DNA from: Candidatus Moraniibacteriota bacterium
GTDB lineage: Bacteria; Patescibacteriota; Minisyncoccia; JAHIHE01; JAGLIN01
Assembly (NCBI GenBank): GCA_030641185.1
Contig: DAOWHY010000035.1
Coordinates: forward strand, 1 to 55,025
Length of the DNA stretch: 55,025 nucleotides
Direction: 5' to 3'
Part shown: positions 2,825-47,364 of the stretch, one piece after another
Layout: the number at the start of each line of letters is the position of its first letter
Position numbering within the stretch: position 1 is the stretch's first letter
Translations under genes and position numbers: made by a program
The notes under the pieces: generated by a model
Told to the model about the DNA's origin: nothing
The model's database searches: none
What the model saw: the letters and a program-made list of their open reading frames with translations, nothing else

Positions 2825-4585
2825 ATGGAGAATAAAAAACAAAAAACAATTTATCTAAATGCGGATGATGAAATTAATTTTATAATTGATAAGATTAAAA
2901 AATGTGAAGCAAAAGAAATTACGCTGATTATTCCTGAAAGCGCTATGGTTCTTCAAAATCTAATAAATCTCAAGGTGCTTAGGATGAACGCGAAAGAACT
3001 TGAAAAAGATATTTCAATAGTTACTATTGACGATGATGATTATTTTGAGACAGGAAATAAAATTGGAAATCGATCAAGTTCTATAAAGAATTTAATAGAT
3101 GAATCAGATGAAGAATTAAATAAGAAAAAAGAAAATGAAAGTGATGTTCCAAGTGTTTCTTTTGTTAAAAATCTGGAAAATAAAAAATCTGAAAGTAAAA
3201 CTGAAATGCGTGATATAATAAAAAAGAAAGAAATCAATACTGATGGCGCTGATAGCGCAGTCAAAGAAATAAGGGAAAAAAAAGAAGAGAGCTTGCTTCA
3301 ACAAAAAGAATTTAGTCAAAATGGAATTGAAAACGCAGAAAATAATAAAAACATAAATATTAGCAAAGTGAATGACTTTGAAAAATCAAAAAAACAGAGT
3401 AGGAGAAAAATAAATTTACTTCCGTCGCTAAGCTCAAGGTTTTTTGCCGGGTTTATCATTGTTTGCTTTACTACTGTTCTGGTAATTTTAGGGTTTGTGC
3501 TTCCTAAGTCAGATATAGTTATTACCTTGAAAACAGAAGCGTTAACATACGATTTTGAATTTGTGGCCGATGAATTAATAAATAAAATTGACTCAGTAAG
3601 CGATAAAATTCCGTCGGAAAAAATAGATATTATAAATGAAGAAAGTGGTAATTATCCAGCCACGGGAAAAAAGCATATTACAGAAAAAGCGGTAGGGAAG
3701 ATTACAATTTATAACGAGTGCTCCACTGGTTCGCAAACTTTAGTCGTTAATACTAGATTTCTCTCTAAGGAAGGAAAAATATTTAGAATAAAAAAAGCAG
3801 TTAAGATAGCTGGTTTTACTAAGCCTGAAGATAAAATTATTCCAGGAAGTGTTACGGTGGATGTTGTAGCTGAAGGGTCTGGCGAAAATTATAATATAAA
3901 TAGTACATCTTTTACTATACCTAGACTCCAAGAATTAAATAGTTGGAAATTCTCCTGTCTTTATGCTAGATCAGAACAAGCAATGTCTGGCGGAGTTGAT
4001 AGGGAAGTCTTATATTTTTCAGACAGCGATTATCTTACAGCCAAAGAAAAACTTGTAAAAATTGCAAAGGAAAAAAACGAGAAAGAATCTTCGGAGAAAT
4101 CTTCAGACAAATATGTGCTGTTAGAAAATTTGGAACAGAACGAAGAAGTTAAAATTGAAGATGATGTTAAAGTTGGCGATATTGTTGATAGTTTTCAAAT
4201 GACCGTTTCAGTAAAAACTACAGCTCTTTTTGCGACTAAAGACGATCTTGACGATTTAATAGATGAAAAAATCAGTTCAGATTTGAGTGATGATATAGAA
4301 CTCGTTGAGGGAAGCAGAAAATGGGAAGTTGGAGAAATAAATAAAGATGAAAATGGAAAAATGTCTATACCCGTTTCTGTTATCCAGAATTCAATTGCCA
4401 AAATTGACATTGATAAAATAAAAAACGAAATAGCTGGAAAAAACGAATTGGAATTACGAAAGTATTTTATTAACATAAAAGGAATTAAAGCAACGGATGT
4501 GGGTTTCTGGCCGTTTTGGGTAAAAAGTATTCCATCATCTTTGGATAAAATAAATATAACTATTGACATAAATAGTTCTATGTAG
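2825..4585 (+). CDS. hypothetical bitopic membrane protein with large extracytoplasmic C-terminal region
   Basis: 586-aa ORF. It has a K/E-rich N-terminal cytoplasmic part, one TM helix (FFAGFIIVCFTTVLVILGFVL) and then a beta-rich region. No motif recognised. Confidence 0.6.
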   Translation: MENKKQKTIYLNADDEINFIIDKIKKCEAKEITLIIPESAMVLQNLINLKVLRMNAKELEKDISIVTIDDDDYFETGNKIGNRSSSIKNLIDESDEELNKKKENESDVPSVSFVKNLENKKSESKTEMRDIIKKKEINTDGADSAVKEIREKKEESLLQQKEFSQNGIENAENNKNINISKVNDFEKSKKQSRRKINLLPSLSSRFFAGFIIVCFTTVLVILGFVLPKSDIVITLKTEALTYDFEFVADELINKIDSVSDKIPSEKIDIINEESGNYPATGKKHITEKAVGKITIYNECSTGSQTLVVNTRFLSKEGKIFRIKKAVKIAGFTKPEDKIIPGSVTVDVVAEGSGENYNINSTSFTIPRLQELNSWKFSCLYARSEQAMSGGVDREVLYFSDSDYLTAKEKLVKIAKEKNEKESSEKSSDKYVLLENLEQNEEVKIEDDVKVGDIVDSFQMTVSVKTTALFATKDDLDDLIDEKISSDLSDDIELVEGSRKWEVGEINKDENGKMSIPVSVIQNSIAKIDIDKIKNEIAGKNELELRKYFINIKGIKATDVGFWPFWVKSIPSSLDKINITIDINSSM

Positions 4586-12157: not shown

Positions 12158-13603
12158 TTATTCCTCCTCTAAATCAACCGAAATCAATCTACCATCCTCC
12201 ACATAATAAACAGAGTTATTGTCTCGGGAATAAAAAATATCATTATTCTCCAATTCTAAAACATCAAAAACATTTACTTTATCTCTATTGTCAAATTCTA
12301 TAAATTTAAAAATATCGTCTTCTTTATAAAATAAATGTTCCTCGTCTATGTATAACGAAATATTATTTATCTCGTTGCTGTATCTTGTGATTAACTCGTT
12401 TTCAAATTTTTCCTTATGAGGTTGTGAAAGTTTCTCTTTTAGATAATATATCCAAATTTCGTGGTTACTATAATAAATAATTCGTTCATTATAATTTGTG
12501 AAATAAGCATTCTTTACTTGAGAATTTATAAAAGTTATCTCGTTTGTTTTACTGATAAAGTATAACTCTCCAGACCAAGATAAAATTAGATAAGCGTTGT
12601 CGTTTGACTTTATTATTCTTGCCGGCGATTGAGTGTCAAAATCATTCGGCATTGTTGAAACAATTTTTGCTTCTGATAGATTATCCAAACTGCTGACATA
12701 TAAAACATAATCATTTTTTTTGAAATAATATAAATAATCCCCATGGACCAAGAATCCAGACACATTTTTCAGCACTCTTTTCGAAACTAATTTTTTATAA
12801 TCAAATTCATACAGTATATCATTCTTATCATTTTTTAAGTAAAACAGAGATTCACCAAAGTCAAAATTATATTTATTTTTAACTTTTGAAATTTCATTAA
12901 AAATAAAACTGACATCAGATATTTTATTTTTATTTTCAAAATCAATTAAATACCAAAAAAAGCTGTTGTTTTCGCTTATTTTAGCGATTATCTTTGTATC
13001 ATCATTTGACCAAATAATGTCGTCAAGACTAAAATTAATATCGTTCTTTTTAAATGGCGCGTTATTAAAATTCGCGATTATTTTTACTTCTTCATCTTTT
13101 GATTTTGAATTAATGTCAAACAAATTTAAATTATTTTGATTTCTGTAAACGACTTTATTTTTTCCGTTGCTGATCCAAATATTATTCGCGCCTAAACTTG
13201 TTGTTATATTATCCAGTAAAATATTTTTTTCATAATTATTTTTTAAAAGAGCAATGTTTTTAAGTTCAGTTATATATCCGCCATTGACATTTATATTTTT
13301 CCCCCAATCAAAATATCCATCCTTTTTTATTTTAATATTATACTCGCCGCTATTTAGATTTTCAATTTTAATATATCCAGTGAGCAAAGTATTTAAAGTG
13401 TTATTATTTTCAAAAAGATCGTCGTTAATATAAATGTCAATATCTTCTGGAGTAGATTTTATTATAATTGCTCCTGTTTGTATTGTTTCTCCTTTTTTCA
13501 TATCATATTTATATCCAAAACTATAAAACAAAACAATAGCAAGCAAAACAAAGAATGTCGTTATGCAAATATATAAATAGATTTTCAATTTTTTGTTTAT
13601 CAT
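12158..13603 (-). CDS. bitopic membrane protein with a PEGA-like domain and a beta-propeller-like C-terminal region
   Basis: Start trimmed to the internal ATG (MINKKLKIYLYICITTFFVLLAIVLF), because the longer ORF would overlap the mreB start on the opposite strand. PEGA-like stretch: IIIKSTPEDIDIYINDDLF...GEYNIKIKKDGYFDW. Confidence 0.6.
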   Translation of the reverse strand: MINKKLKIYLYICITTFFVLLAIVLFYSFGYKYDMKKGETIQTGAIIIKSTPEDIDIYINDDLFENNNTLNTLLTGYIKIENLNSGEYNIKIKKDGYFDWGKNINVNGGYITELKNIALLKNNYEKNILLDNITTSLGANNIWISNGKNKVVYRNQNNLNLFDINSKSKDEEVKIIANFNNAPFKKNDINFSLDDIIWSNDDTKIIAKISENNSFFWYLIDFENKNKISDVSFIFNEISKVKNKYNFDFGESLFYLKNDKNDILYEFDYKKLVSKRVLKNVSGFLVHGDYLYYFKKNDYVLYVSSLDNLSEAKIVSTMPNDFDTQSPARIIKSNDNAYLILSWSGELYFISKTNEITFINSQVKNAYFTNYNERIIYYSNHEIWIYYLKEKLSQPHKEKFENELITRYSNEINNISLYIDEEHLFYKEDDIFKFIEFDNRDKVNVFDVLELENNDIFYSRDNNSVYYVEDGRLISVDLEEE

Positions 13604-13674
13604 ATAATCATCATAATTTAAATTGACAATTAGCGCAAATAAGATAGAATAAAGGAAGTCGTTAACTAAAATAT

Positions 13675-14682
13675 ATGTTTGTAAAGAAAATAGGAATAGA
13701 TCTTGGAACCGCCAATATATTGGTATTTTTGCCTCAAAAGGGCGTTGTTGTAAACGAGCCATCTGTTATTGCGGTATCTATTGAAGATAATAAAATTTTG
13801 GCTGTTGGAAATAAAGCAAAAGAAATGTTGGGAAAAACCCCGGAAAGTATATCCGCAAGTCGTCCGGTTAAAGATGGTGTAATTGCCGATTATAAAGTTA
13901 CGGAAGCAATGATGCGGTACTTTATAAATAAAGTAAGTGGAAAAGTTCGATTTTTTAAGCCCGAAGTCATAGTTTCCGTTCCTGCTGGAATTACTTCAAC
14001 AGAAAGAAGGGCGGTTATTGACGCTACAATGCAAGCTGGCGCGAAGGCCGCCTATGTTGTTAAAGAACCGATTTTGGCCGCCATTGGCGCTGGAATTCCG
14101 ATAAATACGCCTTTTGGTAATATGATTATAGATATTGGCGGAGGAACTTCAGAAGTGGCTGTTATTTCTTTAGGAGGAGTTGTGTCATTTTCTTCGGTCA
14201 GAGTTGGCGGGGATAAATTGGACAAGGCAATTTCTGAATTTGTCAGAAAAAAGCATGGAATAATTATTGGCGACAGAAATGCGGAAGAGATAAAAATAAA
14301 AATCGGTAGCGCGATCATTTCAGAGGAAGATAATTTTATGGAGGTGAGAGGAAGAGATTTGATTTCGGGATTACCGAAGACAATAAAAATAAGCTCAAAT
14401 GAAATTACGGAGGCGATTCAAGATGAACTTCAGGAAATAATCAGGGCTGTAAAAAATGTCCTTCAAAATACACCGCCAGAATTATCTTCAGATGTTATTG
14501 ATCGCGGAATGGTTTTAAGCGGCGGCGGCGCGCTTTTGAAAAATCTGGATAAATTATTATCGCAAGTAACAGGCGTTCCATGCTATGTCGCGGACGATCC
14601 ATTATTGTGCGTTGCGAAAGGAACTGGTAAAGTTTTGGATGATTTGGATTTGTATAAGCGGAGCGTGATTAGTAGTAAGTAG
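13675..14682 (+). CDS. mreB: rod shape-determining actin homolog MreB
   Basis: IGIDLGTANILV, NEPSVIA, RPVKDGVIADY, DIGGGTSEVAVISLGG, VLSGGGALLKNLD. Confidence 0.95.
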   Translation: MFVKKIGIDLGTANILVFLPQKGVVVNEPSVIAVSIEDNKILAVGNKAKEMLGKTPESISASRPVKDGVIADYKVTEAMMRYFINKVSGKVRFFKPEVIVSVPAGITSTERRAVIDATMQAGAKAAYVVKEPILAAIGAGIPINTPFGNMIIDIGGGTSEVAVISLGGVVSFSSVRVGGDKLDKAISEFVRKKHGIIIGDRNAEEIKIKIGSAIISEEDNFMEVRGRDLISGLPKTIKISSNEITEAIQDELQEIIRAVKNVLQNTPPELSSDVIDRGMVLSGGGALLKNLDKLLSQVTGVPCYVADDPLLCVAKGTGKVLDDLDLYKRSVISSK

Positions 14683-29253: not shown

Positions 29254-29721
29254 ATGAAAAATTTCGTTGTGATTTGCGATGGTCTTAGGAGCTTATTTAA
29301 TGTAGGCTCCGTTTTTAGAACTGCTGATGGGGCTGGGATTGATAAAGTATATTTATGCGGAATAACAGGAAAACCCGATACAAACAAAGCGGAAAGAAAA
29401 ATATCCAAAGTGGCTCTCGGTGCGCAAAAATATGTTGAGTGGGAATATGTGAAGCAATCATGGAGGTTAGTTGAGAAATTAAAAAAGGAAAGGTATCAGG
29501 TTGTGTCTCTGGAACAGGCTTCCAAAAGCATAGATTATACTAGTTTTAAGCCAAAGTTTCCCCTTGCTTTGATTATTGGCAATGAGGGAAAGGGAGTAAA
29601 AAAATCTTTATTAAATAGATCTGATAAAATTATTGATATTCCAATGCGTGGACAAAAAGAATCTTTAAATGTTTCTGTTGCTTTCGGGGTTGCGGCTTAT
29701 TGGATTGGAGGATTTAAATAA
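29254..29721 (+). CDS. SpoU/TrmH-family (SPOUT) RNA 2'-O-methyltransferase, minimal single-domain form
   Basis: NVGSVFRTADGAG, LIIGNEGKGV, IDIPMRGQKESLNVSVAFGVAAY. Confidence 0.85.
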   Translation: MKNFVVICDGLRSLFNVGSVFRTADGAGIDKVYLCGITGKPDTNKAERKISKVALGAQKYVEWEYVKQSWRLVEKLKKERYQVVSLEQASKSIDYTSFKPKFPLALIIGNEGKGVKKSLLNRSDKIIDIPMRGQKESLNVSVAFGVAAYWIGGFK

Positions 29722-29789
29722 ATTTTATAAGATCCATTTTAATGAAATTATGTTTGCTGATTTTAAAAAATAAAAAAAGATATTACAAG

Positions 29790-30140
29790 TCAATTCTGAC
29801 TCATAATATCTTGCATAACTTTTTCAAATTGAGGAATTGCATCAAGGGGCATTATCATTTGATCTATTGATTTTATGCCATTTGGTGTCAGTCTCACTTT
29901 TTGTTTGTCTCCAGAAAATTCTATCCAACCAACATTTGCGAAATTTGCCAGATCATCTGGTAATTCTTGCGGTTCTTTGCTTATAATATCATAAGTTATT
30001 ATACCTTCTCCTTCTAATTTTCCAAATGCTTCTTTTAAAACATCTACACTCAGAAAATTATTTTTTTCAGAAATTCTTCTTAAAAATTTCAAAGCAAATC
30101 CGCCTGGTTTTTTTATTTCAATTTTCTTTTCATTTGCCAT
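29790..30140 (-). CDS. hypothetical small protein, possible winged-helix protein
   Basis: 116 aa with a strong SD (AGGAGGTG) before the ATG. It is divergent from the Trm9-like gene, and the shared spacer contains palindromes. Confidence 0.5.
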   Translation of the reverse strand: MANEKKIEIKKPGGFALKFLRRISEKNNFLSVDVLKEAFGKLEGEGIITYDIISKEPQELPDDLANFANVGWIEFSGDKQKVRLTPNGIKSIDQMIMPLDAIPQFEKVMQDIMSQN

Positions 30141-30286
30141 TTATTGGCACCTCCTATTCTTGCAGATTAGCATGTCTTTTATAATTGTCAATGATTCTAA
30201 AAATCAGTTTAGAATAGTCTCAGTTATTTACTATAGTCCCATACCCCAGGGCATGGAACTATATAGTTTTTGAATTCCAAAATAAT

Positions 30287-31000
30287 ATGAATAAAAATAA
30301 TCCACAAAAAATTATAGAGAAAGTCAAAGATGACTATAATTTAATTGCTACTGAATGGGATTTAAGCAGAAATAAAGCTTCTCAGTTAAAGATAAACTTA
30401 ATAGAAAACGTGGAATCAAAATCTAAAATTCTGGATATCGGTTGTGGCAATGCTTTAATACTCCCTTCTATTTTAAAGAAAAACATTTTTTATTTTGGTT
30501 TTGATATTTCAGAAAAGCTTATTGAAATTGCTACAAAAAAATATGCAAAAGAAATAAAAAATAAAGAAGCTAATTTTTTTACGGGACAGGCGACTAAGCT
30601 TCCTTTTAAAAATAAAGAATTTGATTTTGTGATAAGTTTTGCTACGCTTCATCACATTCCTTCAAAAGAATTACAAGAGAAGTTTTTTAGAGAAATTAAA
30701 AGAGTTTCTAAACCAAACGCAAAAGTGAAAATTATTGTCTGGAATCTTTATAGTGAGTGGACTAATAAAAGATTTGATATTGAGAATAAGCTTAAAGGAA
30801 AAAAGAGTGGAGAAGTTTTTATTCCCTGGAAAGCGACTCAAGGGAAAATTATCAATCGTTTTATTTATCAATTTTCAAAAGAAGAATTATTATCTCTTAC
30901 TAAGAACGCAGGATTTAAAAATATAAAAATTGATTTATTTAATAGAGCGGGAGAGAGAATAGAAAATGGAGAAGAAATGGTTTTAGAGATGGAGATGTAA
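30287..31000 (+). CDS. class I SAM-dependent methyltransferase resembling tRNA methyltransferase Trm9/ALKBH8-MT
   Basis: ILDIGCGN (motif I), LPFKNKEFDFVISFATLHHIPSKE, IIVWNLYSEW, GEVFIPWK, RFIYQFSKEEL. Order and spacing parallel yeast Trm9 (IDVGCGNGKY / LPHKNETFDFAISIAVVHHWST / IYCWALEQ / QDVFVPW / YRYYHLYREGEL). Confidence 0.7.
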   Translation: MNKNNPQKIIEKVKDDYNLIATEWDLSRNKASQLKINLIENVESKSKILDIGCGNALILPSILKKNIFYFGFDISEKLIEIATKKYAKEIKNKEANFFTGQATKLPFKNKEFDFVISFATLHHIPSKELQEKFFREIKRVSKPNAKVKIIVWNLYSEWTNKRFDIENKLKGKKSGEVFIPWKATQGKIINRFIYQFSKEELLSLTKNAGFKNIKIDLFNRAGERIENGEEMVLEMEM

Positions 31001-31018
31001 AGTGGTTATAAATAAAAA

Positions 31019-31040
31019 GCTAAGGGTTTATTTCCTTAGC
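31019..31040. terminator. hairpin between the convergent Trm9-like and elp3-operon genes
   Basis: GCTAAGG-GTTTATTT-CCTTAGC. Confidence 0.55.
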
Positions 31041-31041
31041 A

Positions 31042-31239
31042 TTATCTCATCATCATTTTGGCGCAAGATTCAGAACAGCTCCCAGTTCCATTTATTGCTC
31101 TAAATTCTGTTTTGGTTATTTCTATTTCCTTATCACAAAAATTACAGTTTATGTTTACAAAATTATTAGTCTGTAAATCTATCCAGTTGAATATTTTGTA
31201 AAAAAACCGCCTTCTTTTTTCTGGCATTACATCTCCCAT
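31042..31239 (-). CDS. small 4-Cys metal-binding protein with TRASH-type spacing
   Basis: 65 aa with C32-x2-C35-x19-C55-x3-C59 (NCNFCDKEIEI...GSCSESCAKM). SD AGGAGG lies 8 nt upstream. It starts 27 nt after the Elp3 stop on the same strand. Confidence 0.6.
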   Translation of the reverse strand: MGDVMPEKRRRFFYKIFNWIDLQTNNFVNINCNFCDKEIEITKTEFRAINGTGSCSESCAKMMMR

Positions 31240-31265
31240 TTATTTTACCTCCTTAACATTTTTTC

Positions 31266-32954
31266 CTAAATCCACTTTACCATATATCCATCTTCAAGTC
31301 TATATCCCAATTTCCGATAATAATCTCTTACTCCCACACCGCTAATGACGGCGATTTTTTTTAGATTAAATTCTTCTTGTGTAATTTTTTCCGCTTCCAA
31401 AATTAGTTTTTTTCCCAGTCCAATATGCTGGGGAGATTTTTTGTTTTTAGATTTTATTGGCATCATTTGTCCATAAGTGTGAACCTCACGAATGATGGAC
31501 TGGAGTTCAGGTTTTAACCTGTAAGGCTTACATTCTAAAGAGTGAACTTCGGAATTGATTCTCAATCTCAACAATGAATAAAGATTCTTTCTTTCTCTGT
31601 CTTCAAAACTCAAGAATATTTCTTTGCCATCAGAAGCGTTATAATCTTGGCGGAATAATTTTAAATTTTTAGATGCCGCAAATTTATTTCTTATCTCCCG
31701 ACATCTTATGCATTTACATTGCCAGCCTTCTTCTTCTGATTTTTTCTTTAAAACCTGTCTTAAATTAGAAACTTTATTTCCAGCAATTATACTTGTTGAC
31801 GGAATATCGCGAATGAGGCGAGTAATACGGACATAGTAGGGCATCATCTTTTTTATTTCCGCTAATAATTCTATCAGTTTTTTGTCAGAATATGGTTTAT
31901 ATTTGCCATTTTTCCACCACTTATAAATAGATGAGTCTTTAACCACAACGCACGGGTAAATTTTTAGCATGTCAGGTTGGAAGTTTGGATTGGAAAATAA
32001 TTCTTTAAACATTTCTAAATCTCTTTTATAATTTGATCCCGGAAGATTCGGCATCATATGATAATTTATTTTAAACCCGGCTTCTTTCAATAATCTTGTC
32101 GCTTCAATCGTCGTGGCAACAGAATGTCCGCGTTTGTTTAATTTTAAAATGTCGTCATAAATACTTTGAATGCCAAGCTCAACTCGCGTCGCGCCCAATT
32201 TTCGCATGCTAATAATTTCTTTCGTGTCAATATAATCCGGCCGCGTTTCAAGAGTTAAGCCGATAATTCTGTGCTTTGATTTCTCGTTTGTTTTTTGAAG
32301 TTGGAGCAGAGTATGTTTAACGATGTCCGACGACGAAATCCTCCACGCTCCCTTTGTGAAAGAGGGAGTCGTGCTTCCCCTTTGTAAAAGGGGGCGGGGG
32401 GGATTTCGTCGGTCGATTTCATTACATGCCCGAAAACATTCTTTCACAAACCACGTTTGATATTGTTTTGGAAAATATGAAAAAGTCCCACCCATGATGA
32501 TCAATTCAATCTTGTCTGTTTTATGTCCGGTCGCTTCAAGCGATTTTATTCTTGCCGCCACTTGTTTGTAAGGATGAAAGTCCGTCAAAATCGCTCGCAT
32601 CACTGCCGGTTCATTTGATAAATAACTCTTCGGCATATCTTTTTCCGTCGGGCAATAAACACAAGTTCCGGGACAAGCGTATGGTTTTGTTAAAACGGCA
32701 ATAACTGCCACGCCGGACAATGTCCTGATATTTTTAGTTATCAAAAGATTTTCAATATTTTCATTCGGCTTTATTTTTTTATTCTTTACCATCTTTCTAT
32801 AAACTTCCAAAAGTTCAATGTTTGTCGGATTTGGCAAGCTGAATTTCTTTGAAGCTTTTCTTTTCAATTTCAAAAAATACTCATTCTGATTTTTGATGGG
32901 GATTTTTTTGAGGAGTTGTTTGATGATGTATTCGTTGATCATAAATTTTGACAT
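31266..32954 (-). CDS. elp3: Elp3-type radical SAM / GNAT acetyltransferase (tRNA U34 carboxymethylation enzyme homolog)
   Basis: Radical-SAM cluster motif CPGTCVYCP, IMGGTFS, GLTLETRPDYI, VELGIQSIYDDILKLNKRGH, HMMPNLPGS. C-terminal GNAT: IIREVHTYGQ, QHIGLGKKLILEAEKI. Two palindromic repeats are inserted in frame. Confidence 0.9.
   Translation of the reverse strand: MSKFMINEYIIKQLLKKIPIKNQNEYFLKLKRKASKKFSLPNPTNIELLEVYRKMVKNKKIKPNENIENLLITKNIRTLSGVAVIAVLTKPYACPGTCVYCPTEKDMPKSYLSNEPAVMRAILTDFHPYKQVAARIKSLEATGHKTDKIELIIMGGTFSYFPKQYQTWFVKECFRACNEIDRRNPPRPLLQRGSTTPSFTKGAWRISSSDIVKHTLLQLQKTNEKSKHRIIGLTLETRPDYIDTKEIISMRKLGATRVELGIQSIYDDILKLNKRGHSVATTIEATRLLKEAGFKINYHMMPNLPGSNYKRDLEMFKELFSNPNFQPDMLKIYPCVVVKDSSIYKWWKNGKYKPYSDKKLIELLAEIKKMMPYYVRITRLIRDIPSTSIIAGNKVSNLRQVLKKKSEEEGWQCKCIRCREIRNKFAASKNLKLFRQDYNASDGKEIFLSFEDRERKNLYSLLRLRINSEVHSLECKPYRLKPELQSIIREVHTYGQMMPIKSKNKKSPQHIGLGKKLILEAEKITQEEFNLKKIAVISGVGVRDYYRKLGYRLEDGYMVKWI
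31503..31550. repeat. 48-nt internally deleted family E element, in frame inside elp3
   Basis: GGAGTTCAGGTTTTAACCTGTAAGG...AGAGTGAACTT keeps both ends of the 163-bp element at 15835-15997. 48 nt equals 16 codons, contained within the SEVHSLECKPYRLKPELQ stretch on the minus strand. Confidence 0.75.
32331..32411. repeat. 81-nt palindromic element in frame inside elp3
   Basis: Terminal inverted repeats CGACGAAATCC / GGATTTCGTCG enclose two hairpins (CTCCCTTTGTGAAAGAGGGAG; TCCCCTTTGTAAAAGGGG). 81 nt equals 27 codons. This is the only copy in the window. Confidence 0.65.
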
Positions 32955-41516: not shown

Positions 41517-42662
41517 ATGAAAAAAGAATCTTTGTCAACATCAATGTCAAAATTAATTTTAACGATCGTTTTGATTATTTGTATTGGGACAACATTTGGA
41601 CTGATGGGATATTATTCAACAAAGACACCAACAAAAACTAAAATTCCAGAAAATAAAATAGCGTGGGCGATGTATAACTCAGTTGATAAAAGTTTGTTTG
41701 ATTGGGAAAATTATAATATTAAATATCCCAGTGATTGGAATTATACAGAAGAAAGAATTTCTTCATCAAGAAAAACTGGCACTTTAATGACTATTTTTAC
41801 AGATAGCAAACGGTTTAATAAATTATTAATAATCACTGGTGGTAAAAGATTAGACAATATGACAAATCAAAATATGTCAGAAATTAAATTTTCTAATAAT
41901 GTTTTTTACAAGTACAATAATATAGAAACTGAACAAGTATATTATATTTATAAAACTGGCTTAGATGAAGAAATTAATTTTGGAATGGAAACAGAAATAT
42001 TTTTTAAATTCAATAATACTGATGAGAATATAATAAAAGAGATACTAGGAAGTTTTAGTTTAAATTTGTCTGTAGAGTTGATATCGACGGAAATAGAAAT
42101 AATAAACGACACTTCCGACTGGCAGACTTATCGGAATGAGGAGTTTGAGTTTGAGTTTGAATATCCTTCGAAATTTGGAGAAGTTATTTTTGAAATAAAT
42201 CCAGAAATAGCTCTTGTAAAAGAAGGAGAAAAAAGAGGAATGAAAATGGAAGGATATTTTTCTAATAAATCAGGTATAATTTTTGGTGGAAAGACGGCTA
42301 ATTATGACGATGTTTCTAGAGAAATTACTAAAATTGATTTTAAAGGATATACTAAAAACAACGAGGGATATTTTTTTGGTTTTAATCCTTATCAAAATGA
42401 ATTATATGGAAAAATGACGCCAAAGAAAATTATAAACGATAATATTTTATTAGTAAATTGCAAAAGTTTTGCGGAACGATGTTTTATTATTGATACATAT
42501 ATGTCGAGAACAGTGGATGAAGACCTAAAACATTCAATGGCGGGCTTAATAAATTTAAAGAAGGGTGAATTTAGTGGTTTGATGATGTTAGCAAATGATA
42601 AATATATAAGAGAAGACGAATTTATTAAAATCCTTTCCACTTTCAAATTTATAGAAAACTAA
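41517..42662 (+). CDS. hypothetical secreted/anchored protein, paralog 1 of a cassette pair
   Basis: N-terminus MKKESLSTSMSKLILTIVLIICIGTTFG. It has the W.TY.NEEFEFEFEYP motif and ends STFKFIEN. It shares 5' and 3' ends with 42792-44456. Confidence 0.6.
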   Translation: MKKESLSTSMSKLILTIVLIICIGTTFGLMGYYSTKTPTKTKIPENKIAWAMYNSVDKSLFDWENYNIKYPSDWNYTEERISSSRKTGTLMTIFTDSKRFNKLLIITGGKRLDNMTNQNMSEIKFSNNVFYKYNNIETEQVYYIYKTGLDEEINFGMETEIFFKFNNTDENIIKEILGSFSLNLSVELISTEIEIINDTSDWQTYRNEEFEFEFEYPSKFGEVIFEINPEIALVKEGEKRGMKMEGYFSNKSGIIFGGKTANYDDVSREITKIDFKGYTKNNEGYFFGFNPYQNELYGKMTPKKIINDNILLVNCKSFAERCFIIDTYMSRTVDEDLKHSMAGLINLKKGEFSGLMMLANDKYIREDEFIKILSTFKFIEN

Positions 42663-42791: not shown

Positions 42792-44456
42792 ATGAAAAAA
42801 GAATCTTTATCAGTTATGACAGTCAAAACGCTTTTGGCTGTGGTTATTTTTACGGGGATTGGAACGATTATTATCGGCGGGGGATATATTATTGGGGAGT
42901 ATTCTAAAACGCAAAATAATAATAAAACTATTAAGATTATTGAGACTGTTGAAGAAAATCAAAAAGAGGAATTAATAATATCTTGCAAAACAGATTCGGA
43001 TTGCGAAGGTTATTTTTCGTATAATACTTGTGAAGTTTTTTGTGCTAATAAAGATGAAAAAAATCAAAAAATACTTGAGGGATTTAAGAAAAGGTGTGAT
43101 CTAACAGCATGGTTTGCGCTTCAACCTAAATGTGGATGTATTGATAATAAGTGTCAGCAAGTAGTTGGAGAAAGGTCTTATGATCTTTTAGAAAAAAAAT
43201 GTGACGGCAATAGCTGTTGCCTAGATGCTCTTGAATATATGAAAGAGAATAATTATAAGGAAACCAAACGAAGTTTTCAGCCAGAAGAAAAGCATAACTG
43301 CCCGAGTGGGTTTAAAGTAGGGAGTCTTGATTGCTATACTTTTTTGAAGTGGTGCGAGCCGGTTGAAGAAAAATATTGTTTTGACGGCCAAAATAATCGT
43401 AGAGAAATTGGAGAAATTTGGTCAGAAAGTCCGACTATATTTACAGAATGCAATGAATTCGAGAGTGTTTCAGTCAATCATGTGTTGTCTTGCGGTAAAG
43501 AAAAATTAATTATCTCGGCTGGCTATAGTTCTAATGAAAACAATATAAACAGAACTAACCCATCACTTCCTTTTTTCATCGGAACCGACCTCTCGTTAAA
43601 ATATACATGGGTTATAGACGGAAATAAATACACAAGCTCTTCTGGCGGACCGACTGGGGTTTTTGCCTCGTGCGAAAATGAAAAAGCGGCAATATTTTCT
43701 TTTGGTGGGATGGGTGAAACATATTATAAAAAAACATTTTTTGAAAATGATTATAAAACAGTAATATCTTGTCTTGATTCGTTAGCTTATTATGAAGAAG
43801 GCGGAAGAGTTTACGATGAAAATGATCCTAAAAATTTTACAATCGGCAGATTTAAAAATGGCGAAAGAGCGGGAGAGTTTAAACTGCTTGAAAATGGAAA
43901 AGAAATATGTCAGGAAATTAAAGAAAGGTATCAAGAGATAGAAGAAACTACCATTGGCACATTAAACTGGCAGATTTATCAGGATAAAAAGTTTGGATTT
44001 GAGATGAAGTGTCCGGAATATTATAATAGGTTGTTATATGATTTTAAGACTATGAAAGAAGAAGATTATAACAGTATTCATTTTTTTAGAGATATGAGCG
44101 AAGAAGAATTGAATGATTTCAAAGAAAATTATTTAATTGTCTTTGAAGAGGGTGGTACTCATTCGGGAACAGTTTTGGTGAAATCATATAATAATGAGGA
44201 AAAATTAAAAAAATGGTATGAAATTGAATCATTTGAAGATCTTGAATTTAAAGAATTCGATAATGTAGATTATTATATAGCGAACAAACTAACAAAGAAC
44301 ACTTCATCTAAAAACGAACAGTTGATAGCAGGTTATAACTATATTATCCCGCACCGTGAAATTGACAATTTATTTTTGGTCTTTGAGATACCTGAGTTTT
44401 TAAAATCAAAATTTGAAAAGGATTTTCTTCCCACTTTTAAATTCACACAAAAATAA
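42792..44456 (+). CDS. hypothetical secreted/anchored Cys-rich protein, paralog 2 of a cassette pair
   Basis: N-terminus MKKESLSVMTVKTLLAVVIFTGIGTIIIGGG. It has a Cys-rich central region, the motif WQIYQDKKFGFEMKCP, and ends PTFKFTQK. Confidence 0.6.
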   Translation: MKKESLSVMTVKTLLAVVIFTGIGTIIIGGGYIIGEYSKTQNNNKTIKIIETVEENQKEELIISCKTDSDCEGYFSYNTCEVFCANKDEKNQKILEGFKKRCDLTAWFALQPKCGCIDNKCQQVVGERSYDLLEKKCDGNSCCLDALEYMKENNYKETKRSFQPEEKHNCPSGFKVGSLDCYTFLKWCEPVEEKYCFDGQNNRREIGEIWSESPTIFTECNEFESVSVNHVLSCGKEKLIISAGYSSNENNINRTNPSLPFFIGTDLSLKYTWVIDGNKYTSSSGGPTGVFASCENEKAAIFSFGGMGETYYKKTFFENDYKTVISCLDSLAYYEEGGRVYDENDPKNFTIGRFKNGERAGEFKLLENGKEICQEIKERYQEIEETTIGTLNWQIYQDKKFGFEMKCPEYYNRLLYDFKTMKEEDYNSIHFFRDMSEEELNDFKENYLIVFEEGGTHSGTVLVKSYNNEEKLKKWYEIESFEDLEFKEFDNVDYYIANKLTKNTSSKNEQLIAGYNYIIPHREIDNLFLVFEIPEFLKSKFEKDFLPTFKFTQK

Positions 44457-46072: not shown

Positions 46073-46212
46073 TGTCATTGCGAGGAGCCTGAGTGGACGC
46101 AGTGAACGAGAAGGCGACGAAGCAATCCCGCAACTAAGCTCTCTGTGCGTAGTTACGGGATTGCTTCGTCATTCCACTACGCTATCGCTCCGTTCCATTC
46201 CTCGCAATGATA
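46073..46212. mobile_element. family A element, 140 bp
   Basis: TGTCATTGCGAGGAGCCTGAGTGGACGC...GACGAAGCAATCCCGCAAC ... GTTACGGGATTGCTTCGTC...CCTCGCAATGATA. Its right end supplies an upstream in-frame ATG for the tgt ORF. Confidence 0.88.
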
Positions 46213-46224
46213 GTAAAACATATT

Positions 46225-47364
46225 ATGTTCAAACTTCTCAAAAAATTCAAAAAATCTAATGCCAGATTAGGGGAATTAAAAACAAAACACGGGATTATAA
46301 AAACCCCGTGTTTTATGCCGATTGCGACTTGTGGGAGCGTGAAATCAATTGATAGCATTGAGATGGAAAAACTTGGCGCAAATATAATTCTGGGAAATAC
46401 TTATCATTTATACTTAAGACCGGGAGATAAACTAATTAAAAAATTCAGTGGGCTGCATAATTTTATGAATTGGCAAAAACCAATTTTAACGGATAGCGGT
46501 GGATATCAGGTTTTTTCTTTGGCAAAGATGAGAAAAATTACTGAGGAAGGAGTAAGCTTTCAATCTCACATTGATGGATCTCGCCATCTGCTAACTCCGG
46601 AAAAATCGATTGAGATTCAGCGAAATTTGGGAAGCGATATTATTATGGTTTTGGATGAATGCGCGCCATACCCGGCGAGTAAAAAATATATCAAAGAATC
46701 GTTAGAATTAACGACGAGATGGGCAGGTCGCTGTAAAGATTATTTTGAAAAAACACAAAGCATAAAATACAAAAGCCAAACAAAACACAAAACACAAAGA
46801 GCTTTATTATTTGGCATTGTGCAGGGCGGGATTTATAAAGACCTGCGGAAAAAATCGGCTAAACAATTATTAGAATTAAATTTTGACGGTTACGCAATCG
46901 GCGGAGTTTCGGTAGGGGAGCCGAGCGAAAAAATGTTGCAGGTTGTTGACTGGACTATGCCGTTTTTGCCGGAAGATAAGCCGAGATATTTGATGGGAGT
47001 TGGAAAACCGGAAGAAGTTGTCAGCGCTGTGGCAAGAGGGATTGATATGTTTGATTGCGTGATTCCGACAAGAAACGCGAGACATGGAACGATATATAAA
47101 TTTAAAAATAAAAGCTCAAAGTTAAAAGTTGCGGAAAAACAAAATAAAAATTTTTATGAAATTTTGCATATTACGAATGAGAAATTTAAAAGCGATAAAA
47201 AACCGATAGATAAAAACTGCCAATGTTTTACCTGCCAAAACTATTCCCGCGCGTATTTAAGGCATTTATTTGCCTCCGGCGAATTGCTCGCTTTGCGATT
47301 GGCAAGTATTCATAATATATATTTTTATTTGGAGTTGATGAAAAGGATTAGAAATTCGGTTTGA
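46225..47364 (+). CDS. tgt: queuine tRNA-ribosyltransferase
   Basis: TPCFMPIAT.GSVK, ILGNTYHLYLRPG, LTDSGGYQVFSL, VLDEC, FGIVQGG, GYAIGG.SVGE, PRYLMGVG, FDCV.PTRNARHG, Zn site C.C..C. Start set at the internal ATG because the first 6 codons of the ORF belong to repeat 46073-46212. Confidence 0.93.
   Translation: MFKLLKKFKKSNARLGELKTKHGIIKTPCFMPIATCGSVKSIDSIEMEKLGANIILGNTYHLYLRPGDKLIKKFSGLHNFMNWQKPILTDSGGYQVFSLAKMRKITEEGVSFQSHIDGSRHLLTPEKSIEIQRNLGSDIIMVLDECAPYPASKKYIKESLELTTRWAGRCKDYFEKTQSIKYKSQTKHKTQRALLFGIVQGGIYKDLRKKSAKQLLELNFDGYAIGGVSVGEPSEKMLQVVDWTMPFLPEDKPRYLMGVGKPEEVVSAVARGIDMFDCVIPTRNARHGTIYKFKNKSSKLKVAEKQNKNFYEILHITNEKFKSDKKPIDKNCQCFTCQNYSRAYLRHLFASGELLALRLASIHNIYFYLELMKRIRNSV

What the first reader, a model, noticed from the sequence alone, without database searches (positions are those of the whole stretch)
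29254..32954. Compact Elp3 + TRASH-type 4-Cys protein + Trm9-like methyltransferase cluster: a possible bacterial mcm5U34 module
Seen in the sequence:
- An Elp3-type radical-SAM/GNAT gene (CPGTCVYCP, GLTLETRPD, IIREVHTYG, QHIGLGKKL).
- A 65-aa ORF follows 27 nt later on the same strand, with its own AGGAGG SD. Its cysteines are spaced C-x2-C-x19-C-x3-C, the TRASH-domain spacing.
- Converging on this operon is a class-I methyltransferase whose motif order (ILDIGCGN / LPFKNKEFDFVISFATLHH / IIVWNLYSEW / GEVFIPWK / RFIYQFSKEEL) parallels eukaryotic Trm9/ALKBH8-MT block for block.
- A minimal SpoU methyltransferase and a small wHTH-like ORF sit next door. tgt lies 13 kb away.

Established knowledge:
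- In eukaryotes, Elp3 installs cm5 on U34 and Trm9, with the small Zn protein Trm112, methylates it to mcm5U.
- Kti11 is a small Cys4 metal protein that supplies electrons to Elongator.
- Most bacteria use MnmE/MnmG instead.
- Stand-alone bacterial Elp3 exists (Dehalococcoides).

Inference: this is a self-contained three-gene wobble-uridine pathway. The 65-aa protein would act as a Trm112-like or Kti11-like partner. I am not aware of such a linked module being a described bacterial system.
Basis: partly seen in the sequence, partly recalled or inferred. Interest (0 to 1): 0.78.

Follow-up and report, generated by a model that had tools for sequence, protein, structure and literature searches.

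The report
Bacterial Elp3–Trm9-like wobble-uridine gene pair
This candidate-phyla bacterium carries the archaeal/eukaryotic-type enzyme pair (Elp3 plus a Trm9-like methyltransferase) predicted to make the tRNA wobble base mcm5U, and the same pair sits side by side in well over a hundred bacterial loci, including Dehalococcoides, whereas the small 4-cysteine protein beside it is only a patchy, lineage-restricted extra.

Summary
The sequence features are real. Elp3 (31266-32954, minus strand) scores 609 bits on TIGR01211. A 65-aa C-x2-C-x19-C-x3-C ORF with an AAGGAGG ribosome-binding site follows it, and a 237-aa class-I methyltransferase converges on the pair.

The methyltransferase is Trm9-like:
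- Seven residues of the yeast Trm9 active-site patch (six shown essential by mutation) are conserved in 116-117 of 117 Elp3-adjacent homologues.
- An eighth (W168) is W or F; Y243 is not conserved.
- A profile of its C-terminal substrate-binding half finds only Trm9 in the PDB (E=3.5e-5).

Elp3 and this methyltransferase are neighbours in 60 of 69 assessable methyltransferase-centred loci and 61 of 67 Elp3-centred loci. These come from Patescibacteria and Anaerolineae, and the pair is usually head-to-head. The pair also occurs in Dehalococcoides mccartyi, next to the crystallised Elp3. A two-gene bacterial (m)cm5U34 module is therefore well supported.

The three-gene reading is not supported:
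- The 65-aa protein is a real gene (dN/dS about 0.3) of a small FCS/TRASH-like family.
- It recurs directly after Elp3 in six contexts within one subclade.
- It is absent from nine assessable close relatives and from all head-to-head loci.
- It shows no Trm112 or Kti11 similarity.

SpoU and the 116-aa ORF are local synteny only. The locus is a new bacterial member of a known pathway.

The parts
31266..32954 (-). Elp3: radical-SAM plus GNAT/KAT tRNA U34 carboxymethyl (cm5U) synthase, 562 aa, with a basic N-terminal extension
   Evidence: TIGR01211 608.9 bits against a cutoff of 350. PF04055 and PF16199 match. Best PDB matches are M. infernus Elp3 6ia8 (471 bits) and D. mccartyi Elp3 5l7j (420 bits). 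CPGTCVYCP, QHIGLGKKL and the CKCIRC zinc triad are read directly from the translation.
32318..32424 (.). In-frame imperfect palindrome (51-nt arms, 73% complementary) inside a hypervariable Elp3 surface loop
   Evidence: The inverted repeat was found. The loop after ECFRACNE varies in length and sequence in 140 related Elp3 proteins. The motif occurs nowhere else in the window.
31248..31254 (-). Shine-Dalgarno AAGGAGG, 8 nt upstream of the 65-aa ORF start
   Evidence: Read from the sequence.
31042..31239 (-). 65-aa Cys4 (C-x2-C-x19-C-x3-C) small zinc-finger-like protein, co-oriented with and 26 nt downstream of Elp3; a lineage-restricted accessory gene
   Evidence: ORF length and all four Cys are conserved, with dN/dS 0.28-0.34 against L081 and L082. 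HMMER on 1.84 billion representatives recovered a family of 62-76-aa proteins. A member lies directly after Elp3 in L081, L082/83, L170, L164 and L169. There are only sub-threshold FCS/MYM and L24e hits.
31019..31040 (-). Terminator-like hairpin plus T-run ending the Elp3-small ORF transcript, between the convergent genes
30287..31000 (+). Trm9-like class-I SAM methyltransferase (237 aa), predicted cm5U34 to mcm5U34 carboxyl methyltransferase
   Evidence: Generic Methyltransf_11/25 domain hits. The profile aligns full length to Y. lipolytica Trm9 5cm2_Z at 71.9 bits. A profile of the C-terminal half hits only Trm9 (E=3.5e-5). The AlphaFold2 model has pLDDT 93; Trm9 gives TM 0.81 and rmsd 3.0 A, the best of the six top-ranked targets. 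Active-site residues are conserved. Elp3 is adjacent in most related loci.
29790..30140 (-). 116-aa orphan ORF between SpoU and the methyltransferase; a neighbour, not part of the module
   Evidence: It is conserved only in L081 (79%). It is absent where SpoU and the methyltransferase abut in L001, L003, L086 and L097. No family or PDB match was found.
29254..29721 (+). Minimal SpoU/TrmH-family 2'-O-methyltransferase (155 aa); a syntenic neighbour only
   Evidence: PF00588, E=4e-33. It scores below every NCBIfam equivalog cutoff; TrmL reaches only 29.5 bits. It lies next to the methyltransferase only in the window's own clade and is absent from the head-to-head loci.

Best explanation
The core of this locus is a two-gene tRNA wobble-uridine module of the archaeal/eukaryotic type.

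Elp3 works as a stand-alone enzyme. It is predicted to use SAM and acetyl-CoA to put a carboxymethyl group on C5 of U34 (cm5U). The neighbouring Trm9-family methyltransferase is predicted to esterify that carboxyl group with SAM, giving mcm5U34.

In most bacteria that carry the pair, the two genes are head-to-head and share a short divergent promoter region. In the window's own Patescibacteria subclade, a rearrangement has left them tail-to-tail.

The 65-aa Cys4 protein is a real gene co-transcribed with Elp3. It has its own Shine-Dalgarno sequence and a terminator after it. It is an optional, lineage-restricted add-on of an FCS/TRASH-like small zinc-finger family. Its role, perhaps nucleic-acid binding or metal handling for Elp3, is unknown.

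SpoU and the 116-aa ORF are bystanders.

Shown here: gene identities, conservation of the Trm9 active-site residues, and the gene linkage. Inferred, not shown: the chemistry (cm5U then mcm5U), the tRNA substrates, and independence from Trm112.
For: Elp3 identity:
- TIGR01211 609 bits.
- PDB Elp3 hits of 420-471 bits.

Trm9 likeness of the methyltransferase:
- Letoquart 2015 (PMC4678810) lists the ScTrm9 residues whose mutation abolishes activity in vivo, and models Y18 (not mutated) as contacting the cm5U carboxyl group.
- Among 117 Elp3-adjacent homologues, Y18, R29, D72, H115, H116, W145 and R241 are conserved in 116-117, and W168 is W (67) or F (46).
- An Asn corresponding to N271 is visible in most C-termini.
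- The C-terminal-half profile (A3) has Trm9 5cm2_Z as its only significant PDB hit, at E=3.5e-5; the next hit is at 0.13.
- Against the AlphaFold2 model (pLDDT 93), Trm9 gives target-normalised TM 0.81 and rmsd 3.0 A, better than the five targets ranked above it.
- IMG already names a few members TRM9.

Linkage:
- 60 of 69 assessable methyltransferase-centred genome loci have Elp3 adjacent (59 divergent, 1 convergent).
- 61 of 67 assessable Elp3-centred metagenome loci have the methyltransferase adjacent (55 divergent, 6 convergent).
- The identities of the two proteins co-vary across 110 pairs (Spearman 0.71).
- D. mccartyi CP019867.1 has a 224-aa family member 43 nt from, and divergent to, an Elp3 98% identical to the crystallised one.

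Precedent: Elp3 and Trm9 genes cluster in Sulfolobus solfataricus (PMC2584109).
Against: - No biochemical data exist for any bacterial member.
- Whole-protein HMM and Foldseek E-values do not separate Trm9 from other class-I methyltransferases. PH0226 and 3sm3 score marginally higher on the Rossmann core.
- The Trm9 residue Y243 is not conserved; it is H, V or I.
- No Trm112 partner was identified.
- A minority of loci have one gene without the other nearby: L001-L003, L085, L087, L095, L130 and L159.
- Presence or absence of MnmE/MnmG in these genomes is unknown.
- No formal phylogeny against CmoM/UbiE-type enzymes was made.
Confidence: 0.72

Rival explanations
1. Elp3, the 65-aa Cys4 protein and the methyltransferase form an obligate three-component pathway. 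The small protein acts as a Trm112-like activator of the methyltransferase or as a Kti11-like electron donor to Elp3.
For: - The small gene is real, under purifying selection and operonic with Elp3.
- Homologues as low as 39-52% identity again lie 24-28 nt after Elp3 in L164 and L169.
- Other family members sit next to ArgRS, or next to a DUF3850 gene.
Against: - It is absent from every head-to-head Elp3-methyltransferase locus (59 + 55).
- It is absent from nine assessable loci of the window's own clade, including L086 (methyltransferase 85% identical) and L097, where no room exists between the genes.
- No Trm112 (PF03966) or Kti11/CSL hit appears in Pfam at E<=10 or in a PDB profile search at E<=10.
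- The Cys spacing differs from my recollection of the Kti11 C-x-C...C-x2-C pattern (own knowledge).
- The structure model was too poor to test the idea (pLDDT 61).
Confidence: 0.12
2. The methyltransferase is an ordinary UbiE/SmtA-type small-molecule or other non-tRNA methyltransferase. Its position next to Elp3 has no functional meaning.
For: - Pfam and NCBIfam give only generic or UbiE/MenG-type sub-threshold matches.
- Several unrelated class-I methyltransferases score as well as Trm9 over the Rossmann core.
Against: - Adjacency holds in about 90% of assessable loci, across Patescibacteria and Anaerolineae and down to 22-25% methyltransferase identity. This is far more than synteny decay would leave. 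Two Dehalococcoides-type loci also show it.
- The substrate-binding half matches only Trm9.
- The residues of the Trm9 active-site patch are near-invariant.
Confidence: 0.07
3. The pair modifies tRNA, but the end product differs from mcm5U. The methyl ester could be an intermediate towards ncm5U or a thiolated or otherwise extended derivative. Alternatively, the methyltransferase could act on a different Elp3-dependent carboxyl group.
For: - Y243 is replaced in all bacterial members.
- Different clades attach different extra genes to the Elp3 operon: a Nudix gene in 27 loci, an APS/PAPS-reductase-family gene in a group of Anaerolineales loci, and the Cys4 protein here.
- The title of a yeast trm9 study listed (PMC3110198) suggests an additional step in mcm5U synthesis.
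Against: Nothing in the sequences requires a different product. The residues proposed to hold the cm5U carboxylate and uracil (R29, H115/H116, R241, N271) are kept.
Confidence: 0.09

Closest known systems
Eukaryotic Elongator (Elp3) / Trm9-Trm112 (ALKBH8-TRMT112) mcm5U34 pathway
   Same: - The catalytic Elp3 architecture is the same: radical-SAM plus KAT domains.
- The methyltransferase shares the Trm9 fold and the specific C-terminal cap.
- It shares the active-site residues Y18, R29, D72, H115/H116, W145, W168 (as W or F) and R241.
   Different: - No Elp1,2,4-6, Kti11-13 or Trm112 homologues were seen in the window or its related loci.
- Y243 is not conserved.
- The genes are physically linked, usually as a divergent pair.
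- Enzyme activity is untested.
Archaeal stand-alone Elp3 with Trm9 orthologue (clustered in Sulfolobus solfataricus; HVO_1032 / HVO_0574 in Haloferax)
   Same: - Elp3 is stand-alone. The window's Elp3 scores highest against archaeal M. infernus Elp3 and has a similar basic N-terminal extension.
- Elp3-Trm9 gene clustering has been noted in an archaeon (PMC2584109).
   Different: - The host here is bacterial: Patescibacteria, Anaerolineae and Dehalococcoidia.
- Archaeal Trm9 orthologues were reported only in Sulfolobales and Halobacteriales (PMC5372719). I assume, from the title of PMC6144793 and my own knowledge, that archaeal Trm9 works with Trm112.
- The bacterial pairing is far more pervasive, at about 90% of loci.
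Dehalococcoides mccartyi Elp3 (PDB 5l7j), the characterised bacterial Elp3
   Same: It is the same enzyme family. Its gene also has a divergent Trm9-like methyltransferase 43 nt upstream.
   Different: - DmcElp3 lacks the long basic N-terminus present here (and the alignment).
- The papers I could read call DmcElp3 'a rare example of bacterial Elp3s' and do not mention a partner methyltransferase.
- The original 2016 paper was not available to check.
TRASH / FCS-type (MYM, FLZ, L24e-like) Cys4 zinc fingers
   Same: - The C-x2-C-x19-C-x3-C spacing matches.
- The family consensus is C-x-F-C-x-K ... (C/S)-C-S-x-x-C-A-K.
- The best, though non-significant, profile hits are the ZMYM5 MYM finger (E=0.078) and ribosomal L24e (E=0.46-0.87).
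   Different: - No member reaches a Pfam gathering score. The best is zf-FLZ at 16.5 bits against 23.4.
- The proteins carry a conserved N-terminal helix (W-I/L-D...N) that these domains do not define.
- Metal binding is untested.

Membership tests
Elp3 (TIGR01211) | Whole-protein match to the curated Elp3 model above its cutoff, with a radical-SAM domain followed by a GNAT/KAT domain | tested here: met
   608.9 bits against a cutoff of 350, covering residues 25-561. PF04055 and PF16199 match, with a weak GNAT hit.
Elp3 (TIGR01211) | Radical-SAM cysteine triad, acetyl-CoA motif Q-x-x-G-x-G, and the bacterial/archaeal three-Cys zinc site in the linker | tested here: met
   CPGTCVYCP, QHIGLGKKL and CKCIRC are read from the translation. 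The zinc-site criterion comes from PMC6367351.
Elp3 (TIGR01211) | cm5U34 formation on tRNA | not testable with these tools
   This needs enzymology or tRNA LC-MS.
Trm9 / ALKBH8-type tRNA (cm5U34) carboxyl methyltransferase | Class-I SAM methyltransferase fold with the SAM-binding acidic residue (ScTrm9 D72) | tested here: met
   Methyltransf_11/25 hits. The AlphaFold2 model has pLDDT 93. The D73 equivalent is D in 116 of 117 homologues.
Trm9 / ALKBH8-type tRNA (cm5U34) carboxyl methyltransferase | Active-site residues needed for activity in yeast: R29, H116, W145, W168, R241, Y243, N271 (plus H115 and Y18) | tested here: inconclusive
   - Conserved: Y18 117/117, R29 116, H115 116, H116 117, W145 117, R241 116.
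- W168 is W in 67 and F in 46.
- N271: an Asn is visible in most C-termini, but the column is alignment-dependent.
- Y243 is not conserved (H 43, V 41, others).
Trm9 / ALKBH8-type tRNA (cm5U34) carboxyl methyltransferase | Specific homology of the substrate-binding C-terminal half (VW-x-L/E, PW, R-Y-Y-H-x-F/Y blocks), beyond the generic Rossmann core | tested here: met
   The profile of window residues 141-237 and 32 homologues hits only 5cm2_Z (Trm9) at E=3.5e-5; the next hit is at 0.13. The full-length profile aligns across positions 37-218. Trm9 gives TM 0.81 and rmsd 3.0 A.
Trm9 / ALKBH8-type tRNA (cm5U34) carboxyl methyltransferase | Functional coupling to Elp3 (same pathway) | tested here: met
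   Gene adjacency holds in 60 of 69 and 61 of 67 assessable loci, and in D. mccartyi.
Trm9 / ALKBH8-type tRNA (cm5U34) carboxyl methyltransferase | Obligate Trm112 partner | not tested
   No Trm112-like ORF was noticed in the window or its loci. Whole genomes could not be searched, and no multimer modelling was available.
Trm9 / ALKBH8-type tRNA (cm5U34) carboxyl methyltransferase | Phylogenetic placement with bona fide Trm9 rather than CmoM/UbiE-type methyltransferases | not tested
TRASH / FCS-type zinc finger (65-aa protein) | C-x2-C-x19-22-C-x3-C spacing | tested here: met
   Cysteines at 32, 35, 55 and 59. All four are invariant in 10 family members.
TRASH / FCS-type zinc finger (65-aa protein) | Match to a curated model (zf-FCS, zf-FLZ, Arc_trans_TRASH, YHS, L24e) above threshold | tested here: not met
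   The best matches are zf-FLZ at 16.5 bits (cutoff 23.4) and zf-FCS at 13.2 bits (cutoff 22.4). The PDB profile's best hit is at E=0.078.
Trm112 (PF03966) as identity of the 65-aa protein | Sequence or profile similarity to the Trm112 zinc-knuckle family | tested here: not met
   No PF03966 hit at E<=10. No Trm112 chain appears in the PDB profile search at E<=10.
Kti11/Dph3 (CSL zinc finger) as identity of the 65-aa protein | Sequence or profile similarity to the CSL zinc finger | tested here: not met
   No such Pfam or PDB hit at E<=10.

The most novel reading that the evidence does not exclude
The 62-76-aa FCS/TRASH-like Cys4 proteins could be a previously unrecognised accessory factor of stand-alone bacterial Elp3. 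They might deliver tRNA, metal or electrons, which would be analogous in role, though not in ancestry, to Kti11. Together with the clade-specific Nudix gene, this would mean that bacteria have repeatedly recruited small helpers to an Elp3-Trm9 module that makes mcm5U without Elongator or Trm112.
Probability: 0.15. Interest if true: 0.7.

Novelty: new member of a known kind. Interest (0 to 1): 0.5.

Why it matters
As far as I know, mcm5U-type wobble modification is regarded as a eukaryotic and, to a limited extent, archaeal trait. One paper I read calls bacterial Elp3 'rare' (PMC6367351), and none of those I could read names a partner for it.

A Trm9-like methyltransferase is the near-constant neighbour of Elp3 in Patescibacteria and Anaerolineae, and it also flanks Elp3 in Dehalococcoides. 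This predicts that these bacteria make mcm5U34 with just two proteins.

The prediction can be tested at once in a tractable system. D. mccartyi Elp3 is already purified and crystallised, and its partner gene lies 43 nt away. The same system bears on two open questions: whether Trm9 chemistry can run without Trm112, and how the pathway moved between domains of life.

Tried and rejected
- **Word-indexed homologue search with the 65-aa protein.** It found only three near-identical sequences. I first read the ORF as nearly unique. Full HMMER on cluster representatives later found a wider family, and I revised that view.
- **tblastn and Cys-pattern scans for a small Cys4 ORF.** Across 160 Elp3/methyltransferase loci they found none outside the subclade.
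- **Spacer ORFs in L004 and L091-L098.** They are junk-like or repeat DNA, not a diverged homologue.
- **AlphaFold2 of the 65-aa protein from a three-sequence alignment.** The model was poor (pLDDT 61) and Foldseek gave nothing significant.
- **Whole-protein HMM and Foldseek ranking of the methyltransferase against the PDB.** It did not discriminate Trm9 from other class-I methyltransferases. Splitting off the C-terminal half did.
- **SpoU as a TrmL-like wobble 2'-O-methylase.** Rejected: TrmL reaches 29.5 bits against a cutoff of 190.6, and the linkage is clade-local.
- **The 116-aa ORF as a wHTH protein.** No evidence either way.
- **MnmE/MnmG absence.** None was found among the window's proteins scanned with Pfam.
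- **Literature.** No held paper links Elp3 with Patescibacteria, CPR or Chloroflexi. The one Patescibacteria hit concerned Thorarchaeia. Glatt 2016 was not held.
- **tRNA genes.** None in the window.

Full report
**1. What is in the sequence**

The region 29254-32954 holds five ORFs:
- a 155-aa SpoU-family methyltransferase (29254-29721, +; PF00588, E=4e-33);
- a 116-aa ORF with no detectable relatives in Pfam, NCBIfam or the PDB (29790-30140, -);
- a 237-aa class-I SAM methyltransferase (30287-31000, +);
- a 65-aa ORF (31042-31239, -);
- a 562-aa Elp3 (31266-32954, -).

Elp3 is unambiguous.
- It scores 608.9 bits on TIGR01211 against a cutoff of 350.
- It scores 471 bits against M. infernus Elp3 and 420 bits against D. 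mccartyi Elp3 in the PDB.
- The radical-SAM cysteines, the QHIGLGKKL acetyl-CoA motif and the CKCIRC zinc triad are all present. Lin et al. (PMC6367351) describe that triad as conserved in bacterial and archaeal Elp3.

The 65-aa ORF starts 26 nt after the Elp3 stop.
- AAGGAGG lies 8 nt before its ATG, and a hairpin plus T-run follows it.
- Its cysteines are at positions 32, 35, 55 and 59.

tgt is at 46207-47364. The window has 28-39% G+C per 2-kb bin. Relatives of its methyltransferase that carry an organism name are from Patescibacteria.

**2. Is the methyltransferase Trm9-like?**

Curated libraries give only generic answers: Methyltransf_11/25 and sub-threshold UbiE/MenG matches. Whole-protein comparison with the PDB is dominated by the Rossmann core.
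- Y. lipolytica Trm9 (5cm2_Z) ranks fifth with the single sequence.
- It ranks third with a 26-sequence family profile (71.9 bits, against 76.2 for PH0226). It is one of only two targets among the three printed alignments that align through the C-terminal blocks; the other is 3sm3.

Three more specific tests were run.

(i) Active-site residues. Letoquart et al. (PMC4678810) showed that ScTrm9 R29, D72, H116, W145, W168, R241, Y243 and N271 are needed for activity in vivo. H115 contributes, and Y18 is modelled as contacting the cm5U carboxyl group. I aligned 117 complete, Elp3-adjacent homologues extracted from the loci below:

| ScTrm9 residue | State in 117 homologues |
|---|---|
| Y18 | 117/117 |
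| R29 | 116 |
| D72 | 116 |
| H115 | 116 |
| H116 | 117 |
| W145 | 117 |
| R241 | 116 |
| W168 | W in 67, F in 46 |
| Y243 | not conserved (H, V, I and others) |

An Asn corresponding to N271 is visible near most C-termini (E-x-N-I/L-x-x-V...K, or E-N-G-E-E in the window's clade). It falls in alignment-dependent columns.

(ii) C-terminal half. A profile of only this half (window residues 141-237 plus 32 diverse homologues, A3) finds Trm9 as the single significant hit among 177,635 PDB sequences. Its E-value is 3.5e-5, and the next hit is at 0.13.

(iii) Structure. A confident AlphaFold2 model (pLDDT 93) matches many class-I methyltransferases at similar Foldseek E-values. Trm9 gives target-normalised TM 0.81 and rmsd 3.0 A, better than the five targets ranked above it.

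IMG already labels a few family members 'TRM9'. I conclude that the protein is a Trm9-family enzyme, with one non-conserved active-site position. No formal phylogeny was made.

**3. Are the genes co-conserved?**

Methyltransferase-centred scan. A scan of one genome per GTDB species with the family alignment returned 80 loci.
- In 71 of them the match extends into the C-terminal part (to window residue 195 or beyond).
- Of those 71, 69 have enough flank to judge.
- Of those 69, 60 have Elp3 adjacent: 59 head-to-head and 1 tail-to-tail.

These loci come from Patescibacteria and from many Anaerolineae/Chloroflexota. The Patescibacteria titles include Paceibacterota, Magasanikbacteria, Yanofskybacteria and Saccharibacteria.

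Elp3-centred scan. A scan of metagenome contigs with the window's Elp3 returned 80 loci.
- Of these, 67 are assessable.
- Of those 67, 61 have the methyltransferase adjacent: 55 head-to-head and 6 tail-to-tail.

Across 110 pairs, the identities of the two proteins to the window's copies co-vary (Spearman 0.71).

Dehalococcoides. I rebuilt the D. mccartyi Elp3 sequence from the PDB alignment, found its database cluster and read its locus. In CP019867.1 a 224-aa methyltransferase lies 43 nt upstream of Elp3 and is transcribed divergently.
- It is 28% identical to the window's enzyme (E=6e-23).
- It carries FHH, VWN, VPWK and K-R-Y-Y-R-L-Y.
- A second relative, with Elp3 69% identical to DmcElp3, shows the same pair.

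The Elp3-methyltransferase pair is thus one of the most constant features around bacterial Elp3. The window's tail-to-tail order is a derived arrangement of its own subclade. The local block there is RmuC-Nudix-p110-SpoU-methyltransferase / Elp3-p119-ClpB.

**4. The 65-aa protein**

It is a real gene.
- Three relatives keep the 65-codon frame with no indels and keep all four Cys.
- Substitutions are biased to third codon positions, and dN/dS is 0.28-0.34.

A word-indexed search found only near-identical copies. Exhaustive HMMER over 1.84 billion cluster representatives found further 62-76-aa relatives. They share W-I/L-D...N...C-x-F-C-x-K...(C/S)-C-S-x-x-C-A-K.

Genomic contexts:
- It lies directly after Elp3, 24-39 nt away and on the same strand, in L081, L082/83, L170, L164 (Elp3 58% identical) and L169 (Elp3 70%). 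L169 has a second tandem paralogue.
- Other members sit beside ArgRS (L167), after a DUF3850 gene (L165/166), or before a sortase (L168).

Against a core role:
- It is absent from nine assessable Elp3 loci of the same subclade.
- L086 (methyltransferase 85% identical) and L097 have only 25-47 nt between the Elp3 and methyltransferase stops.
- L091-L093 and L098 have repeat-filled spacers.
- It is absent from every head-to-head locus.

Homology:
- Only sub-threshold FCS/MYM, FLZ and L24e-type hits appear.
- Trm112 and Kti11 are not hit at E<=10.
- The structure model is unreliable.

It is best described as an optional, TRASH/FCS-like zinc-finger accessory that has a recurrent but narrow association with Elp3.

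**5. Other neighbours**

- SpoU and the 116-aa ORF are linked to the pair only within the window's clade.
- SpoU scores highest against RlmB/TrmH models, not TrmL.
- Other clades attach other genes. A ~132-aa Nudix gene lies immediately after Elp3 in 27 CPR loci. An APS/PAPS-reductase-family gene lies between the methyltransferase and Elp3 in a group of Anaerolineales loci.

**6. Mechanism**

Shown here: the identity of Elp3, conservation of the Trm9 active-site residues, and tight gene linkage.

Inferred from the established eukaryotic and archaeal pathway (PMC6367351, PMC4678810, PMC2584109):
- Elp3 makes cm5U34 from SAM and acetyl-CoA.
- The Trm9-like enzyme methyl-esterifies it to mcm5U34.

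Unknown:
- the tRNA substrates (no tRNA genes lie in the window);
- whether a Trm112-like partner is needed;
- whether 2-thiolation follows;
- whether MnmE/MnmG are absent. None is encoded among the window's proteins scanned with Pfam, but the genome could not be searched.

**7. Comparison with what is known, and novelty**

- The pathway itself is textbook for eukaryotes.
- Stand-alone Elp3 is known in archaea and in D. mccartyi.
- Elp3-Trm9 gene clustering was noted for Sulfolobus solfataricus (PMC2584109).
- Archaeal Trm9 orthologues were reported as confined to Sulfolobales and Halobacteriales (PMC5372719).

In the library I could search, no paper connects Elp3 with Patescibacteria, CPR or Chloroflexi. 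The Elp3 papers I read do not mention a bacterial Trm9 partner. Glatt et al. 2016 was not available, so prior mention there cannot be excluded.

I rate this as a new (bacterial) member of a known kind. It carries a useful, directly testable prediction, and a minor open question about the small zinc-finger protein.

Noticed in passing
window 32318-32424 (inside Elp3, residues ~180-215): An in-frame imperfect palindrome (51-nt arms, 73% complementary) sits in an Elp3 loop after 'ECFRACNE'. The loop is hypervariable in length and sequence across 140 related Elp3 proteins. To my eye several relatives carry different repeat-element-like peptides there, so the loop may tolerate insertion of palindromic repeat elements.
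   Followed up: partly
L103, L106, L108, L114, L120 and 22 other loci, directly downstream of Elp3: A ~132-aa NUDIX hydrolase (PF00293, E=1e-17) lies immediately after Elp3 on the same strand in 27 CPR loci with the head-to-head methyltransferase-Elp3 pair. This is a second, clade-specific candidate accessory gene.
   Followed up: partly
L024, L026, L027, L029, L035, L043, L049, L051, L060, L072, L077, L079 (between the methyltransferase and Elp3): In a group of Anaerolineales loci, a ~250-aa APS/PAPS-reductase-family gene lies between the divergent methyltransferase and Elp3, co-oriented with Elp3. It matches PF01507 and carries CC...CxxC and ECGLH motifs.
   Followed up: partly
L171 4283-4957 (-) and 5001-6380 (+); D. 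mccartyi CP019867.1: The structurally characterised bacterial Elp3 has a divergent 224-aa Trm9-like methyltransferase 43 nt upstream, carrying FHH, VWN, VPWK and KRYYRLY. QueH lies in the same locus, about 2.3 kb upstream of Elp3.
   Followed up: yes
window 29790-30140 (-): This 116-aa orphan ORF has its own terminator-like hairpin (29812-29777). It is conserved at 79% in L081 only and has no family, PDB or other locus match.
   Followed up: partly
L169 1007-1202 and 1299-1676: Two tandem paralogues of the Cys4 small protein follow Elp3. The second is 125 aa with a C-terminal extension.
   Followed up: no
L092 7603-7986: The Elp3-methyltransferase spacer in this relative holds two copies of a ~45-nt repeat bearing a hairpin (GCGCGTGGTTCACGACCTTTCrGTCGTGrTCCAGGATAC) instead of a small ORF. 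In addition, seven metagenome contigs end within about 130 nt after Elp3, which may reflect repeats that break assemblies.
   Followed up: no
L007, L009, L010, L011: These MAG contigs are titled 'uncultured Gammaproteobacteria' yet carry Elp3-methyltransferase pairs 32-47% / 42-50% identical to the window's. They are probably mis-binned or mislabelled CPR-like sequence.
   Followed up: no
window 2825-4585 (+), 12158-13762 (-), 41517-42662 (+), 42792-44456 (+): These large ORFs (381-586 aa) have no Pfam match at E<=1e-5. The last two are adjacent and begin with near-identical N-termini (MKKESLS...), which suggests paralogous membrane-anchored proteins.
   Followed up: no
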